IMG/VR virus record: IMGVR_UViG_3300033181_000231
DNA: 64,000 nt
Direction: 5' to 3' (one strand)
DNA from: a virus
Shown: positions 3,596 to 56,236 of the stretch, piece after piece
How the letters are laid out: each line of letters opens with the position of its first letter
Position numbering within the stretch: position 1 is the first letter of the stretch
Position numbers and translations under genes: made by a program
The notes under the pieces: generated by a model
What the model saw: the letters and a program-made list of their open reading frames with translations, nothing else
Databases searched by the model: none
What the model was told of the DNA's origin: nothing

Positions 3596-3967
3596 CTAGA
3601 TGGCATGCGCGCGGTCGTTGATGCGCCCGTGCGCGTAGCTAGGCGCGATCGGCGCGTTGGTGAGGGTGTGGCTGTCCACGCGGTATGCGCGGATGTAGCC
3701 CCGCTCGGCGTCGTCCGCGACGCCCGCCGGCACGATGTCGATGAGGCGAATGGACGGCTCGTATCCTGCGACCACTAGGTCGCGCATCCATCTGCTGTAA
3801 ACCGATGGGCCGCCACGTATCCCCGCGCGAACCGCAGAGCGAGCGGCAGATAGATGGTTCGCCAGACGTGTCCGGAGGGTGCAGCCCGTCTGTCCGATGT
3901 AGCGCACCGCACCTGTCCGTGGATCAACTAACGCGTAGATATGCACGAGCGTGGAGGGATCACGCAT
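3596..3967 (-). CDS. GIY-YIG nuclease-family protein
   Basis: 'HIYALVDPRTGAVRYIGQT...RLANHL' and 'AERGYIRAY...LTN'. Start overlaps the upstream stop (ATGCGTGA). Confidence 0.8.
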   Translation of the reverse strand: MRDPSTLVHIYALVDPRTGAVRYIGQTGCTLRTRLANHLSAARSAVRAGIRGGPSVYSRWMRDLVVAGYEPSIRLIDIVPAGVADDAERGYIRAYRVDSHTLTNAPIAPSYAHGRINDRAHAI

Positions 3968-4205
3968 GGCCGTTTTCCCCTGGGGCGTGGCCCGCGTCCC
4001 GACGCGGTTTCGGCCCCCGCTTCCGGCGTGTGAAGCGCTCAACGTCCTCGACGGGGACGAACAAATCGCGCCCGCGCTTCACACAACGCAGGCGACCTTC
4101 CGCGATAAGATGCCGTACGCGCGCCGCGTTCGCGTACCCCAGGCGCTCGGCCACCTCGGCCGTGGTTAGCAAATCGTCCTCTATCGTCCCGTTCGTCGCA
4201 TCCAT
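3960..4205 (-). CDS. Excisionase-like (HTH_17) DNA-binding protein
   Basis: 'LLTTAEVAERLG...VRHLIAEGRLRCVKRGRDLFVPVEDVERF'. Confidence 0.8.
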   Translation of the reverse strand: MDATNGTIEDDLLTTAEVAERLGYANAARVRHLIAEGRLRCVKRGRDLFVPVEDVERFTRRKRGPKPRRDAGHAPGENGHA

Positions 4206-4251
4206 CCATTTGTTCCTCCGTCCTTATTATAGCACCTTAGCGTGCTGAATT

Positions 4252-6302: not shown

Positions 6303-6815
6303 ATGGCGAGAGCACGTGCAACGCAAGCGCCAGGAGTGCTTGAAGCCGCGGTTGAGCTAGAGCAGAAGGTATGGGAACTGCGTTTAAGCGGCATGAGCCT
6401 GCACACGATCGCGGCCCACCTCAAGATCAGTTCATCAACCGCGCACAAGCATTGGCATCGCCGTTTAAACGCCGCACGTAAAGCGGGCGAGGGCAAGGCT
6501 ATTGACCACGTCACGCTTGAGAATGAGCGATATGACGATTGGCTCAACGCCCTGACGCCGTTCCTTATGGCGGGTAGCCCCGCGCATATGGCGGTTGCGG
6601 TTGCCATCTCGAAAGAGCGACGCAAGCTCAATGGATGGGATGCCCCGTCGCGTATTCAGCACGAAGGCAAGGACGGCGGCCCCATCGTCGTCCAGCAAAA
6701 GCGGGACCTGTCGGCGCTGACCAGTGAGGACTTAGACGACCTTGAGCGCATCCACACACGCCTTGCTGGACGTGCCGAGCCCGGAGGAAATTCGGGCGGA
6801 GAGGGCGCGTCGTAG
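6303..6815 (+). CDS. terS: Terminase small subunit (HTH type)
   Basis: N-terminal HTH (VWELRLSGMSLHTIAAHLKISSSTA), 'ERRKLNGWDAP..IQHEGKDGGPI', directly before TerL. Confidence 0.7.
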   Translation: MARARATQAPGVLEAAVELEQKVWELRLSGMSLHTIAAHLKISSSTAHKHWHRRLNAARKAGEGKAIDHVTLENERYDDWLNALTPFLMAGSPAHMAVAVAISKERRKLNGWDAPSRIQHEGKDGGPIVVQQKRDLSALTSEDLDDLERIHTRLAGRAEPGGNSGGEGAS

Positions 6816-8232
6816 TCTCTACGCGTTCATGCGGCAGGCGTGGCACGTCGTTGAACCCGTGCGCCCGTTCGTGGACGCGTGGCACCTACAGGCCATCGCG
6901 GAGCACCTGGAAGCGGTCACGCGCGGCGAGATCCGTAACCTCGTCATCAACATCGCGCCGGGCATGGCGAAGTCGCTGACCGTCTCGGTCTTCTGGCCGG
7001 TATGGGAGTGGATCGCGCACCCTGAGCGGCGCTGGCTCTACAGTTCCTACGCCCTGTCCCTCTCCATGCGCGACAGCCTCAAGTGCCGGCGCATCATTGA
7101 GTCGCCGTGGTATCGGGAGCGGTGGGGTGACGTTTTCCAGTTGCGGGATGACCAGAACGCCAAACTGAAGTTCGAGAATGACCGCACGGGCTATCGTCTG
7201 GCGACATCGGTGGGGGGAACCGTCACCGGAGAAAGGGCCGATCGTGTTGTTGTTGATGACCCACACAACCTCCTAGAAGCGGCCAGCGATGTCAAGCGCA
7301 TGGAGGCGATCACATGGTGGGACGAGGCGATGTCCACGCGCCTTAACGACTTCAAGACCGGGGCGCGCGTCATTGTCATGCAGCGCCTGCACGAAGAGGA
7401 CCTGTCGGGGCACGTCCTGGCGCGCGGCGGCTATGACCATCTGTGCTTGCCCACGGAGTACGACCCGTCACGCAACGTGACGACCTCCATCGGCTTCCGT
7501 GACCCGCGCACGGTCGAGGGTGAACTTCTGGCTCCAGCGCTGTTTGGCCCTGAGCAGAACGAACAGCAAAAGAAAGACCTGGGGCCATACGGCTACGCGG
7601 GCCAGCACGGGCAGACCCCGGCGCCGCGCACGGGTGGCATGTTTCAGATGCAGTGGTTCCGGGCCGAACAGGCCGCGCCCGCGTCGTTCGTGGCCGTCGT
7701 GCGCTATTGGGACAAAGCGGGTGCCGCGCCCGGCAAAGGCGACTGGACCGTGGGTGTCCTGATGGGGCGCACCTGGGACGGCTACTACTGGATTTTGGAT
7801 GTTGTCCGGGGGCAGTGGCCCAGCAATGAGCGGAACAGCGTCATCCTCGAGACGGCAAAGGTGGACGCAACGCGCTATCCCGGCATGAAGACGTGGGTGG
7901 AGCAGCCGCCTGGCCTCGGTAAGGAGAGCACCGACGCCGTGGTCCGCCTGCTGGCGGGTTACAACGTGCAGGCTGATCCCGCCCACGGCACAAAAGAGGA
8001 TCGCGCCGAGCCCGTGTCGAGCCAACTGCGCGCGGGCAACGTCCGTATGATTGAAGCGGACTGGAACGGCCCGTACCTCGCGGTCATGTGTCCGTTTCCG
8101 GCTGGGCGCCACGATGACGATGTGGACGCCACGAGCGGCGCGTTTAACAAGCTCGCCGTTGAATCCTACGACCCCAACGCGTTCGGCACGGCGGGCGGCC
8201 GCGCTGAGGTGGACGCCTATCGGGTGTATTAG
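6742..8232 (+). CDS. terL: Terminase large subunit
   Basis: Walker A-like 'NIAPGMAKS', Walker B 'VVVDDPH', 'IVMQRLHEEDL', nuclease 'RYWDKA...DWTVG' and 'HDDDVDA'. Exact start uncertain. Confidence 0.95.
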   Translation: MSASTHALLDVPSPEEIRAERARRSLYAFMRQAWHVVEPVRPFVDAWHLQAIAEHLEAVTRGEIRNLVINIAPGMAKSLTVSVFWPVWEWIAHPERRWLYSSYALSLSMRDSLKCRRIIESPWYRERWGDVFQLRDDQNAKLKFENDRTGYRLATSVGGTVTGERADRVVVDDPHNLLEAASDVKRMEAITWWDEAMSTRLNDFKTGARVIVMQRLHEEDLSGHVLARGGYDHLCLPTEYDPSRNVTTSIGFRDPRTVEGELLAPALFGPEQNEQQKKDLGPYGYAGQHGQTPAPRTGGMFQMQWFRAEQAAPASFVAVVRYWDKAGAAPGKGDWTVGVLMGRTWDGYYWILDVVRGQWPSNERNSVILETAKVDATRYPGMKTWVEQPPGLGKESTDAVVRLLAGYNVQADPAHGTKEDRAEPVSSQLRAGNVRMIEADWNGPYLAVMCPFPAGRHDDDVDATSGAFNKLAVESYDPNAFGTAGGRAEVDAYRVY

Positions 8233-26365: not shown

Positions 26366-26508
26366 AGAGGGGGCGCGTTTCTGGAACGCGCCCCCTCTCC
26401 TCACCAAACGGAGCCTCTCCCCGCCGTGCCGTGCCGCGCCGGACCTGGCCTGACCATGCCTGACCACGCCAGACCCTACCCCAACGCTAGCCCACCCAAC
26501 CACCCACA
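26366..26508 (-). ncRNA. Putative guide RNA B: 19-nt leader + GGY-NN pentamer array + 3' 14-bp hairpin
   Basis: 12 consecutive perfect GGY-NN units (26480-26421) then 5 degenerate ones. Hairpin AGAGGGGGCGCGTT/AACGCGCCCCCTCT (26366-26398). Confidence 0.75.
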
Positions 26509-26511
26509 ATG

Positions 26512-27126
26512 CTAGCGCAGGGCAATACGCGTCAACCGGAACGCGCCGTGCCACCCGCCCGTCGAGGGGCGGTAGTCACCGACGCCGTGCATCTTGCCGG
26601 CCGTCTGGATGACCTTCTCAATGCTTGCCATATCGGTTAGCGACAGGTCCAAGACGTAGCGGCAGGTCATGAACCACGGCGGGTTGATCTCCGGCCGGCC
26701 GCGCTCGACGCCTGCCGTTCCCACGACGACGCGCTCCACGTTCACGCCGTAGTCGTCGATGGGCGTCCCGTTCTCATCGTGGAGAACAAACATGGTATGC
26801 ATGGCGTCGAATTGCATCGCGCCTTTGAGAATGTAGCTGTAGCGATAGCGTTGCCCCGGCGCCGGGAAGCGCGCCGCCGCGTCGATCATGCTCTTGCGCA
26901 TATGCGTTGCCGGTAGCGCAAGGTGGCCGTCCGCGTCACGGTAGACGTACTTGGGCGCCTCCTGCTCCGGCGTTGGCCGCTCCTTCTTCTTAACGATGCC
27001 CGTTTCCTGGCGCAAGTTGCCACGCCAATTGTGCATGAGAACCGACGATATGCCCTCGACCGTGAACTCCAGATCGCGCCACGCCTCGAACTCAACCTGT
27101 GGCTTCTCTACCAATGCCGTCACCAT
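26512..27126 (-). CDS. Solo Cas7/RAMP-fold protein (Vipr-like putative RNA-guided effector)
   Basis: AAGGAG RBS. 'LEFTVEGISSVLMHN', 'YRDADGHLALPATHMRKSMIDAA', 'RGRPEINPPW', C-terminal Gly-rich loop 'AGKMHGVGDYRPSTGGWHGAF'. Confidence 0.8.
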   Translation of the reverse strand: MVTALVEKPQVEFEAWRDLEFTVEGISSVLMHNWRGNLRQETGIVKKKERPTPEQEAPKYVYRDADGHLALPATHMRKSMIDAAARFPAPGQRYRYSYILKGAMQFDAMHTMFVLHDENGTPIDDYGVNVERVVVGTAGVERGRPEINPPWFMTCRYVLDLSLTDMASIEKVIQTAGKMHGVGDYRPSTGGWHGAFRLTRIALR

Positions 27127-27158
27127 CGTGCGTTACTCCTTCTTAGAAATCCCCTAGC

Positions 27159-27252
27159 AAGCCAGACCTTACCCCACCTCACCCGACCATACCTAGCCTT
27201 CTACCTGACCATGCCTCGCCTGACCGAGTCCGTGCCCGCCCAACCACCCACA
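27159..27252 (-). ncRNA. Putative guide RNA A: 19-nt leader + GGY-NN pentamer array
   Basis: 13 perfect GGY-NN units (5 + AA insertion + 8) in the intergenic region upstream of the RAMP gene. Confidence 0.7.
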
Positions 27253-27259
27253 TGCACGG

Positions 27260-27841
27260 TTACAGCACGCTATTTTTCTCCGCGATGGCGACGACCTCCT
27301 CTTCGTTAAACACTTGACCAACCGTGCTGTCCGCCGCCCCAGCGGCCATGCGGCCGGCGAGGCAATCGAAGAACCGCGCGTAGGCCGCGTTGGACCGCGT
27401 GCGATCGTAATAGGCGGTGCGTTGATAGAGAACCATGTCCCCTGTCATGTCACCCAGCGGGACCATGCCGACGCCGGGGATCATGAACCGCCAATCGCTC
27501 AGGAGGCACTGCGCCTTGCCCTGCGCGACCGACCGCACCTTCGTCTCGATGGCGATGGGGGCGTCAGGGTTCACCAGGACGGGCGCGCTGCCGGTCACAA
27601 CGGACCTGCTCTGGCGCGTCTGATGCGCGACCTTGCGCCCCAGATAGATGAAGCCTTGCAGGGTGACCGTCCCGGCGATATCGGGCAGGATGCCCCGGTC
27701 CTGGCATGCCGCCAGCGTCCGGTCGGCCGCCTCCCGGTAGCCGATCTGGCCGCTCGCAAGGAGATCGCGCAAGTGGCGCATGGCCCACGCGGTCGCCGCT
27801 GATTGGGCGTCCGCGTCGTCCGGCGGAAGGGGGTTCAACAT
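27260..27841 (-). CDS. Hypothetical protein upstream of the RAMP gene (possible accessory factor)
   Basis: AAAGGA RBS. 'VPLGDMTGDM...Y...N...ARFF..LA' C-terminal helical domain. Confidence 0.65.
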   Translation of the reverse strand: MLNPLPPDDADAQSAATAWAMRHLRDLLASGQIGYREAADRTLAACQDRGILPDIAGTVTLQGFIYLGRKVAHQTRQSRSVVTGSAPVLVNPDAPIAIETKVRSVAQGKAQCLLSDWRFMIPGVGMVPLGDMTGDMVLYQRTAYYDRTRSNAAYARFFDCLAGRMAAGAADSTVGQVFNEEEVVAIAEKNSVL

Positions 27842-27865
27842 GTGGCCTGATCCTTTCTGATTCAC

Positions 27866-28998: not shown

Positions 28999-29027
28999 AT
29001 TATAGTGCAATCGCACTAAGTTTGCAA
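28999..29027 (-). promoter_or_regulatory. Leftward promoter TTGCAA-17-TATAAT with a palindromic operator TAGTGC-AATC-GCACTA (29003-29018)
   Basis: Near-perfect sigma70 hexamers with 17-nt spacing. The palindrome overlaps the spacer and -10. Confidence 0.8.
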
Positions 29028-29068
29028 GGGGGATGGTTGTGTCGCTGATCGTGCTTGATTGGGTGAGG

Positions 29069-29293
29069 GTGGACGGAAAACCCGAATTCATAACGCTCCG
29101 CGAGGCTGCCGAGCGTGCGGGGTATGCCTCCAAGAGCACGCTTCAGACAGCGGCACGTTATGGTGAATTGGAAACTCATAGGGTCGGCAATCAATACCTG
29201 ACGACTCCAGAGTGGCTTGACTCCTACTTGCGAAAGGTGCGACGGGGTTCGTATCGTCGCGGACAAACGCGATCCGAAGGCGAGTCAGCGTAG
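29069..29293 (+). CDS. HTH_17/MerR-like DNA-binding protein
   Basis: 'FITLREAAERAGYASKSTLQTAARYGELETHRVGNQYLTT'. Confidence 0.75.
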   Translation: MDGKPEFITLREAAERAGYASKSTLQTAARYGELETHRVGNQYLTTPEWLDSYLRKVRRGSYRRGQTRSEGESA

Positions 29294-55909: not shown

Positions 55910-56236
55910 ATGGACGCGCTCGTCTACAAAGCCGCCGACCTCGACAACGCCACTCTCGCCCGCCTCGGCTCCGAGGGCTACGCCATCTTCGACCCCGCAA
56001 CGAAGGGCGACCTGCTGCTCTTCGTGAAGGACACTCCGACAGCGCCGCCACCGCCGACCGTTCCGACCGCTGGGGACGCCGCGCCCCTCCCGTCCGATGT
56101 CCCCGCGTCCGTGGAGCCTGTCGCCGCGCCGACCGAGGCCATGCCCACCGAGGCCATGCCCACCGACGCGGGCGGTGTCACGGTCGCGTTCCCGACCGAC
56201 GCCTACGCGCCCCCGGCCGACCAGCCGGCCGTTTAA
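55910..56236 (+). CDS. Hypothetical protein
   Basis: AAGGAG RBS. Pro/Ala-rich tail with a 15-bp tandem duplication (TEAMP x2). Confidence 0.55.
   Translation: MDALVYKAADLDNATLARLGSEGYAIFDPATKGDLLLFVKDTPTAPPPPTVPTAGDAAPLPSDVPASVEPVAAPTEAMPTEAMPTDAGGVTVAFPTDAYAPPADQPAV

What the first reader, a model, noticed from the sequence alone, without database searches (positions are those of the whole stretch)
27159..27225. Decoded guide A reads like a conserved protein motif if the skipped base is the codon wobble position
Seen: the NN string 5'->3' is CA GA AT CA AG [extra AA] TA AT CG GA GG AA CT TT. Inference: read as NNx codons this gives (H/Q)(D/E)(I/M)(H/Q)(R/S)[K/N]Y(I/M)R(D/E)G(K/N)L(F/L). The 'YIR(D/E)G(K/N)L' part resembles the recognition-helix/wing turn of excisionase-type HTH_17 proteins (compare 'LIAEGRL' at 3960-4205). 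A guide skipping wobble bases would resist synonymous escape and could hit a rival phage's regulator gene. The AA insertion breaks the 5-nt register once. I found no convincing self-target by eye.
Basis: inference. Interest (0 to 1): 0.7.

Follow-up and report, generated by a model that had tools for sequence, protein, structure and literature searches.

The report
VIPR guide RNA, target not found
The 67-base stretch is the repeat tract of a guide RNA of a VIPR system, a phage-borne CRISPR-like DNA silencer first described in 2026.

Summary
Observation confirmed. On the minus strand, 27225-27159 is 13 in-register GGY-NN units, one of them 7 nt long (GGTAGAA). The tract lies in the 133-nt gap between a conserved accessory gene and a 204-aa gene. 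A second array follows that gene.

The 204-aa protein is a Vipr-family RAMP:
- its family profile hits the solved SUSP1 Vipr at E=6.9e-18;
- the AF2 model matches Csm3/Cas7;
- the GGY-reading residues are conserved.

So this is vrRNA "A" of a VIPR system (bioRxiv 10.64898/2026.04.26.720920, .720927 and 2026.10.15.759431). It is a new member of a known kind. This scan has already noted VIPR loci in at least 53 other genomes.

The "skip = wobble, resists synonymous escape" inference is the published 1-nt-skip rule. The HTH_17 target is not supported:
- perfect 18-base core matches occur at chance frequency (21 seen, about 17 expected, in 596 Gb);
- they fall in about 40 unrelated protein families, none of them HTH_17;
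- real HTH_17 genes match no better than they match shuffled guides.

No self-target was found. No target was found in IMG/VR, metagenome contigs, 401 alphaproteobacterial genomes, rival VIPR loci or 111 kb of related phages. The target remains unknown. The last two units (CT, TT) may belong to a conserved 3' tail rather than to the guide.

The parts
27159..27225 (-). Repeat tract of vrRNA A: 13 GGY-NN units. NN = CA GA AT CA AG(AA) TA AT CG GA GG AA CT TT.
   Evidence: Direct reading. It is one of only two runs in 64 kb with 8 of 8 in-register GGY. It matches the published vrRNA definition of 9-16 YNNGG repeats.
27199..27205 (-). Irregular 7-nt unit GGTAGAA, which shifts the 5-nt register by 2.
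   Evidence: Direct reading. Irregular 4-, 6- and 10-nt units are common in arrays of relatives L296, L297 and L002. The paper notes 'frequently observed internal degeneracy'.
27233..27251 (-). G-rich 5' leader, GTGGGTGGTTGGGCGGGCA. Near-identical copies lie before array B and before both arrays of the 84%-identical locus L002.
   Evidence: Alignment A1 and direct reading. Function is inferred (processing or nucleation signal).
27127..27158 (-). 3' tail of vrRNA A, which is also the 5' UTR of vipr. It contains the vipr Shine-Dalgarno AAGGAG at 27136-27141.
   Evidence: Direct reading. The segment CTGGYTWGY..GGG, which spans the last two units and the start of the tail, is shared with both L002 arrays. 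There is no significant fold: z = -0.72 for the whole intergenic RNA.
26512..27126 (-). vipr: a 204-aa Vipr-family RAMP (P0001).
   Evidence: Pairwise search puts SUSP1 Vipr as the top PDB hit at the G-loop. The family profile hits PDB 36pp_D 'SUSP1 Vipr protein' at E=6.9e-18 over profile 14-193 / chain 2-190. The AF2 model has pLDDT 94. The Foldseek top hits are all Csm3/Cas7. Residues H32, R144, D184, Y185 and R186 align with SUSP1 H17, R138, D177, W178 and R179.
27260..27865 (-). Conserved upstream partner gene (P0002, vap-like). The likely start is the ATG at 27841.
   Evidence: It is syntenic upstream of vipr in L002 (62% id, E=2e-81) and L296 (31% id, E=7e-24). No Pfam or Atlas hit. Function unknown.
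26396..26508 (-). vrRNA B: leader 26508-26490, 12 clean GGY-NN units at 26480-26421, then degenerate units.
   Evidence: Direct reading and the period-5 scans.
26366..26398 (-). Terminator-like hairpin that closes the unit.
   Evidence: 14-pair stem, 10 of them G-C.
28999..29027 (-). Promoter-like site (TTGCAA-17-TATAAT) that could drive the minus-strand unit through vap-like, vrRNA A, vipr and vrRNA B.
   Evidence: This is a consensus match only; the count is not above shuffles.

Best explanation
The stretch 27159-27225 (minus strand) is the repeat tract of a VIPR guide RNA, vrRNA A. It is transcribed with the minus-strand operon vap-like gene / vrRNA A / vipr / vrRNA B / terminator.

By analogy with the solved SUSP1 system, one Vipr protomer binds each unit. 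The protomers sequester the GGY bases and present the NN dinucleotides. The filament then pairs with double-stranded DNA that reads NN-x-NN-x, skipping every third base, and silences transcription of a competitor's gene.

Shown here: the anatomy, the family membership of the protein, conservation of the GGY-reading residues, arrays with different NN strings in relatives, and absence of a self-target.

Inferred from the family: expression, filament formation, the 1-nt-skip rule and silencing.

Unknown: the target. Units 12-13 (CT, TT) are probably part of a conserved 3' tail, so the working guide may be about 11 units. The 7-nt unit may bulge out, or it may split the guide into blocks of 5 and 6-8 units.
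For: - The GGY-NN tract is exact and unique to the two flanks of one gene.
- That gene belongs to a family of 879 representatives. The family profile hits the solved 'SUSP1 Vipr protein' at E=6.9e-18 over nearly its full length.
- The pairwise alignment places GVGDYRP on SUSP1 GVGDWRP.
- The AF2 model (pLDDT 94) matches Csm3/Cas7 RAMPs at E~1e-6.
- Relatives L002 (84% id), L296 (47%) and L297 (39%) also carry GGY-NN arrays beside vipr, with different NN strings.
- The upstream gene is syntenic in two relatives.
- No self-target, as the papers report for natural systems.
- The tract is unstructured (z = -0.72), as expected for a protein-coated repeat.
- The published definition and mechanism were read.
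Against: - No natural target reaching the papers' criterion (at least 80% NN match) was found above chance in any collection searched. These searches were limited to exact seeds or to 3 mismatches or fewer.
- The 7-nt unit breaks the register, and its effect on a Vipr filament is unknown.
- No pseudoknot-type tail like the SUSP1 tail is evident.
- Nothing here shows expression or processing.
- The protein is only distantly related to SUSP1 Vipr (pairwise E=0.15), so the skip rule is extrapolated.
Confidence: 0.88

Rival explanations
1. The array is mainly a cis-regulatory protein-binding site in the vipr 5' UTR, in the manner of TRAP, which binds triplets with 2-nt spacers. Vipr oligomerises on its own leader and occludes the Shine-Dalgarno 18 nt downstream, giving autoregulation rather than, or in addition to, guiding.
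For: The tract sits directly upstream of the vipr start. The conserved 3' segment runs into AAGGAG at 27136-27141. The period-5 triplet-plus-spacer layout resembles TRAP sites (own knowledge).
Against: The second array lies downstream of vipr, where it cannot regulate vipr translation. NN strings differ between relatives while GGY is kept, which is the signature of a guide and not of a fixed operator. The published systems show guide function.
Confidence: 0.05
2. Guide A is a decayed or disabled guide. The 2-nt insertion breaks the register, so the tract no longer forms a continuous filament and has no current target.
For: The 7-nt unit. No target was found in any collection. The homolog L002 has even more degenerate arrays, with TG or GT in place of GG.
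Against: All 13 GGY triplets are intact. Irregular units are frequent in arrays of relatives and in published vrRNAs. Six-unit guides are functional, so either block could still work. Failure to find a target is expected with these limited searches.
Confidence: 0.06
3. It is a G-rich structural element (two-tier G-quadruplexes), or the C-rich antisense strand acts as a Rho-loading site, unrelated to RNA guidance.
For: GG runs every 5 nt could in principle form G2 quadruplexes. The plus strand is C-rich and G-poor.
Against: This does not explain the strict pyrimidine at position 3. It also does not explain the exclusive association with a Vipr-family gene in this window and in relatives, or the variable NN strings.
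Confidence: 0.01

Closest known systems
VIPR systems (Vipr protein + vrRNA + vap). Characterised examples are the type II systems of Escherichia phage SUSP1 and a Pseudomonas fulva prophage (bioRxiv 10.64898/2026.04.26.720920, 10.64898/2026.04.26.720927, 10.64898/2026.10.15.759431).
   Same: - A lone small RAMP with G-loop and thumb residues conserved.
- GGY-NN tandem units within the published 9-16 range, on the vipr strand.
- One vrRNA upstream and one downstream of vipr, as in SUSP1.
- A two-gene core with an accessory gene, carried by a provirus.
- No self-target.
- The decode with the skipped base at wobble is the published 1-nt-skip rule.
   Different: - Very distant Vipr sequence (pairwise E=0.15).
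- A different accessory gene with no detectable DNA-binding domain.
- A conserved G-rich 5' leader before each array, which the paper's main text does not mention.
- No SUSP1-like pseudoknot tail detected.
- vrRNA A lies between the two genes, and its tail overlaps the vipr ribosome-binding site.
- One 7-nt unit.
- The type (I-VII) could not be assigned, because the paper's supplementary tables are not held.
Class 1 CRISPR backbone subunits (Csm3/Cmr4/Cas7) on crRNA
   Same: The same RAMP fold (Foldseek E~1e-6, TM~0.5). One protomer binds per fixed RNA step, with thumb-induced base flipping.
   Different: - A 5-nt step with three bases sequestered, against a 6-nt step with one base flipped.
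- The guide is hard-coded in the genome, not acquired.
TRAP (trp RNA-binding attenuation protein) binding sites
   Same: Conserved triplets separated by 2-nt spacers, wrapped by a homo-oligomer, and lying in a 5' leader (own knowledge).
   Different: An unrelated protein fold. TRAP sites are fixed operators, whereas here the spacers are the informative part.

Membership tests
VIPR system | A Vipr protein: a minimal RAMP (RRM core, glycine-rich loop, thumb) homologous to the published Vipr family. | tested here: met
   The profile of 68 homologs hits PDB 36pp_D 'SUSP1 Vipr protein' at E=6.9e-18, covering profile 14-193 and chain 2-190. The AF2 model has pLDDT 94. The Foldseek top 50 are all Csm3/Cas7-type RAMPs.
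VIPR system | GGY-reading residues (SUSP1 H17, R138, D177, W178, R179). | tested here: met
   The alignments place P0001 H32, R144, D184, Y185 and R186 at these positions. R144 is invariant, R186 is nearly invariant and D184 is conserved among close homologs. W is replaced by Y, which keeps the aromatic ring.
VIPR system | A vrRNA: at least 4 (typically 9-16) tandem GGY-NN units next to vipr on the same strand. | tested here: met
   13 units at 27225-27159 and 12 clean units at 26480-26421, both on the minus strand and flanking vipr.
VIPR system | GGY conserved while NN is hypervariable among related loci. | tested here: met
   L002 (Vipr 84% id) keeps the leader and the 5-nt period but has different NN strings. 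L296 and L297 carry their own GGY-NN arrays. Only three relatives were examined.
VIPR system | A conserved, structured 3' tail capping the repeat tract. | tested here: inconclusive
   The segment CTGGYTWGY..GGG is shared by 3 of the 4 arrays compared. No significant fold or pseudoknot was found, and array B ends differently, in a terminator hairpin.
VIPR system | An associated accessory (vap) gene. | tested here: inconclusive
   The upstream gene is syntenic in L002 and L296. It has no recognisable domain, so equivalence to vap1-6 is unknown.
VIPR system | A natural target obeying the 1-nt-skip rule with at least 80% NN match and skipped bases at wobble positions. | tested here: inconclusive
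   No hit above chance in IMG/VR, genome contigs, metagenome contigs, 401 genomes or related phages. The searches were restricted to exact seeds or to 3 mismatches or fewer.
VIPR system | No self-targeting on the source contig. | tested here: met
   The best NNx match in the window is 17/26 (65%), within the shuffled-guide range.
VIPR system | vrRNA expressed, bound by Vipr, and repressing DNA targets. | not testable with these tools
   This needs sRNA-seq, pull-down and reporter assays.
HTH_17 (PF12728) gene as target of guide A | The decoded NNx string matches the HTH_17 recognition-helix coding sequence better than chance. | tested here: not met
   None of the 21 distinct perfect-core hit proteins is HTH_17. 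For 29 HTH_17 genes, the mean best match is 13.4/26 against 13.1 +/- 0.24 for shuffled guides (p=0.10). In frame it is 12.3 against 12.1 (p=0.27). The best single match is 16/26, and it is not at the recognition helix.

The most novel reading that the evidence does not exclude
Guide A is aimed at the first codons of a dCTP deaminase gene of the host or of a rival. The conserved N-terminal motif SD-x-DI-x-R-YI-x-x-GK-(I/L) would be read at codon positions 1-2, so the phage would silence nucleotide metabolism or a dCTP-depleting defence.

The best natural match found is such a site: L276, a Bryobacteraceae-type dcd, with 19 of 20 NN over units 2-11, located at codons 6-17. Alphaproteobacterial dcd N-termini also match guide A slightly better than shuffled guides do (p~0.014). 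A variant of this reading is that the 7-nt unit makes guide A a two-part guide.
Probability: 0.05. Interest if true: 0.55.

Novelty: new member of a known kind. Interest (0 to 1): 0.25.

Why it matters
It adds a well-supported VIPR locus from an uncultivated, GC-rich provirus. The host is uncertain: the closest named TerL relative, at 62% identity, is from an Armatimonadetes MAG.

It is far from the characterised E. coli and Pseudomonas systems and shows clade-specific features:
- a conserved G-rich 5' leader before each guide;
- a guide embedded between the two genes, with its tail on the vipr ribosome-binding site;
- a 7-nt irregular unit.

There is also a practical lesson. Reading a decoded vrRNA as a peptide motif is not enough to name a target class, because 18 specified bases recur by chance in unrelated genes. 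Target calls need mismatch-tolerant searches with shuffled-guide controls in the right community.

Tried and rejected
Target searches:
1. Self-target: best 17/26, within shuffles.
2. Exact 13-unit NNx pattern in IMG/VR: 0 hits.
3. 3' eight units (16 bases) in IMG/VR: 10 hits, about 5 independent, with 5' extension of 0-6/10, which is chance level.
The best full score of 22/26 is the expected tail. The hits were redundant AT-rich marine phage genes, none HTH-like.
5. The 18-base core (units 2-4 and 6-11, with unit 5 as a wildcard):
   - IMG/VR: 0 hits.
   - Genome contigs: 21 hits against about 17 expected.
   - Metagenome contigs: 23 hits, about 14 distinct.
   - L291 (21-23/26, 67% GC) is a chromosomal GNAT gene next to namZ.
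   - L265 is an out-of-frame artefact.
6. The extra AA read as an additional target triplet: 3 IMG/VR hits, chance level.
7. The 24-base pattern with 3 mismatches or fewer in 401 Alphaproteobacteria: 0 hits, against 1 for the reversed control.
8. Guide B 20-base core in IMG/VR, tried in order to locate a shared rival element: 0 hits.
9. Rival VIPR loci and prophage fragments: background level.
10. 111 kb of phages with 62-71% TerL identity: best 18/26, shuffle p=0.18.

Target-class tests:
11. The Vipr motif RDG[KN] as target: rejected. Only 8 of 150 homologs have it, and none has the preceding Y[IM].
12. HTH_17 family-level test: negative.
13. dCTP deaminase family-level test: small excess (p~0.014) but the maximum is 16/26. 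L276 is the extreme tail of an abundant housekeeping family.

Searches that returned nothing useful:
14. Rfam: only a sub-threshold STnc250 hit on array B.
15. Megablast of 8 kb against phage records: no match.
16. P0001 in IMG/VR by peptide patterns: nothing found.

Early ideas dropped once the flanked gene proved to be a Vipr homolog: a TRAP-like attenuator, G-quadruplexes, and a Rho-loading site.

Full report
**What is there**

On the minus strand, 27225-27159 reads as 13 consecutive units of the form GGY-NN: GGTCA GGCGA GGCAT GGTCA GGTAGAA GGCTA GGTAT GGTCG GGTGA GGTGG GGTAA GGTCT GGCTT.

The tract lies in the 133-nt gap between two minus-strand genes. These are 27260-27865 (P0002) and 26512-27126 (P0001, 204 aa). 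A second array follows the stop codon of P0001. It has 12 clean units at 26480-26421, followed by degenerate units, and it ends in a strong hairpin at 26398-26366.

Across both strands of the whole window, runs with 8 of 8 in-register GGY occur only at these two places. The plus strand never exceeds 5 of 8, and the only other minus-strand run of 6 or more is a single 6/8 near 56160.

**What the flanked gene is**

- P0001 has no Pfam hit and only an unannotated PHROG.
- An exhaustive HMMER search finds 879 representatives of its family.
- A profile of 68 of them hits a single PDB sequence, 'SUSP1 Vipr protein' (36pp_D). The hit is at E=6.9e-18 and covers nearly the full length.
- Even the pairwise search puts that protein first, aligning GVGDYRP with GVGDWRP.
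- The AlphaFold model (pLDDT 94) matches Csm3/Cas7 backbone subunits of type III and type VII CRISPR complexes (E~1e-6, TM~0.5).
- From the alignments, P0001 H32, R144, D184, Y185 and R186 stand at the positions of SUSP1 H17, R138, D177, W178 and R179. The cryo-EM paper reports that these residues read G1, G2 and Y3.

**The known system**

Three 2026 preprints from one laboratory describe VIPR (Viral Interference Programmable Repeat) systems (read).

- A lone RAMP called Vipr polymerises on a vrRNA made of 9-16 GGY-NN units, one protomer per unit.
- The GGY bases are buried and the NN bases pair with DNA. One target base is skipped per unit (the 1-nt-skip rule), giving transcriptional silencing.
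- Natural targets lie mostly in coding sequence, with the skipped base at the wobble position.
- The October preprint states that this codon periodicity prevents mutational escape. It also shows a functional footprint of only six units.

The scan's index holds 57 VIPR-related findings in at least 53 genomes.

**Comparative support**

- A locus with an 84%-identical Vipr (L002) has 5-nt-periodic arrays on both flanks. They have different NN strings, the same G-rich leader (GTGGGTGGTTGGG-N-GGGC) and a similar 3' end.
- L296 (47% id) has at least five tandem vrRNA-like arrays downstream of vipr. L297 (39% id) has one upstream.
- Irregular units of 4, 6, 7 and 10 nt are frequent in these arrays, so GGTAGAA is not unusual.
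- P0002 is syntenic upstream of vipr in L002 (62% id) and L296 (31% id). It is a vap-like partner with no recognisable domain.
- The segment CTGGYTWGY..GGG, which covers guide A's last two units and the start of its tail, recurs in both L002 arrays. CT and TT may therefore be tail rather than guide. That would remove the 'L(F/L)' from the decoded peptide.
- The tail runs into the vipr Shine-Dalgarno at 27136-27141.
- The intergenic RNA has no significant fold (z = -0.72).

**Testing the decode: is there a target?**

No self-target exists. The best match in the window is 17/26, and shuffled guides reach 15-19.

- In IMG/VR the full 13-unit pattern gives no hit.
- The 3' eight units give 10 hits, about 5 of them independent, with chance-level 5' extension.
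- The 18-base core (units 2-4 and 6-11, with the irregular unit as a wildcard) gives 0 hits in IMG/VR.
- The same core gives 21 hits in 596 Gb of genome contigs, against about 17 expected from 2N/4^18.
- It gives 23 hits in metagenome contigs, about 14 of them distinct.
- Treating AA as an extra target triplet gives three chance hits.
- A 24-base pattern with up to 3 mismatches finds nothing in 401 Alphaproteobacteria, while the reversed control finds 1.
- Guide B's 20-base core has no IMG/VR hit.
- Rival VIPR loci, related prophage fragments and 111 kb of phages with 62-71% TerL identity give only background scores.

**Testing the HTH_17 reading**

- The 21 distinct in-frame proteins of at least 90 aa that carry a perfect 18-base core belong to about 40 unrelated Pfam families. 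These include dCTP deaminase, sigma-54 AAA+, IucA/IucC, protein kinase, GNAT and solute-binding proteins. None is HTH_17.
- I fetched 29 real HTH_17 genes from Alphaproteobacteria. Guide A's mean best match to them is 13.4/26, against 13.1 +/- 0.24 for 1000 shuffled-unit guides (p=0.10).
- In frame on the coding strand the figures are 12.3 against 12.1 (p=0.27).
- The best single match is 16/26, and the top matches are not at the recognition helix.
The similarity is only a generic hydrophobic-x-E-G-basic-L pattern.

**Weak positive signals, reported with their limits**

(a) I trained a composition model on 44 of the phage's own genes, whose GC by codon position is 0.65, 0.54 and 0.85. It ranks 'NN = codon positions 1-2, coding strand' first for both guides. 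The margin is only +1.9 and +1.3 nats over background, and about 1.8 nats over the runner-up for guide A.

(b) The best natural match is the first codons of a Bryobacteraceae-type dCTP deaminase (L276, 'MVLSDVDIQRYIREGKIRI', 19 of 20 NN over units 2-11).
- 27 alphaproteobacterial dcd N-termini match guide A slightly better than they match shuffled guides (13.3 vs 12.0 +/- 0.5, p~0.014), but never above 16/26.
- Typical relatives of L276 match the decoded peptide at 6-8 of 13 residues.
- I read this as the tail of an abundant housekeeping family. I keep it only as the low-probability novel case.

(c) With a 3-nt skip, the 14-unit string scores 19/28 inside the excisionase-like gene (4202-4136, minus strand). 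Shuffles reach this 3.7% of the time. Given the number of variants tried, and that the published rule excludes a 3-nt skip, I do not credit it.

**Host**

The record is an IMG/VR provirus of 64.6 kb. TerL relatives occur in 19 of 201 sampled Alphaproteobacteria (best 50% identity) and in 0 of 201 Actinomycetota. The closest named relative, at 62% identity, is from an Armatimonadetes MAG. The host is therefore unsettled, which limits any pangenome-style target search.

The sampled genome sets included one unpublished genome (G045). Its loci were left out of the HTH_17 and dcd tests, and no claim here rests on it.

**Verdict**

The feature is vrRNA A of a VIPR system and a new member of a known kind. 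The wobble-skip idea is right in principle but already published. The HTH_17 target is not supported, and the true target is unknown.

Noticed in passing
window 27233-27251 and 26490-26508 (minus strand); L002 642-662 and 1372-1392: Both arrays, and both arrays of the 84%-identical locus, are preceded by nearly the same G-rich 19-nt leader (GTGGGTGGTTGGG-N-GGGC), a few nt after the preceding stop codon. The word 'leader' does not occur in the main text of the first VIPR paper. It may be a clade-specific processing or nucleation signal.
   Followed up: partly
window 27127-27158 (minus strand): The 3' tail of vrRNA A overlaps the vipr ribosome-binding site (AAGGAG, 27136-27141). Vipr assembling on its own leader could feed back on its own translation.
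   Followed up: no
L276 518-1096 (metagenome contig Ga0187893_10140109): The best natural match to guide A's core (19 of 20 NN over units 2-11) is at codons 6-17 of a Bryobacteraceae-type housekeeping dCTP deaminase. It is probably chance, but the site is promoter-proximal and the motif is conserved in the family.
   Followed up: partly
L296 1515-1775: The 47%-identical Vipr homolog is followed by at least five tandem GGY-NN arrays separated by spacers of about 13 nt. They run to the contig end, so this is a multi-guide array in the same clade.
   Followed up: no
L298 2501-3160: A 38%-identical Vipr homolog on a 61-kb contig has no recognisable GGY-NN array in the adjacent intergenic regions. 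It may use one of the alternative repeat forms the paper mentions, or have its guides elsewhere.
   Followed up: no
P0274 (homolog of window 6742-8232): An 81%-identical large terminase in a relative is 818 aa long and carries intein and LAGLIDADG domains (PF14890, PF14528). It is an intein-bearing TerL in this phage group.
   Followed up: no
window 4136-4202 (minus strand): With a 3-nt skip (5-nt period), the 14-unit NN string matches 19/28 inside the excisionase-like gene 3960-4223. Shuffled guides reach this 3.7% of the time. It is not credited, because the published rule excludes a 3-nt skip and many variants were tried.
   Followed up: yes
window 29033-29293 (+): A weak HTH_17 match (E=0.002, below the Pfam cut-off) in the divergent unit next to the VIPR operon. 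Guide A does not match it.
   Followed up: partly
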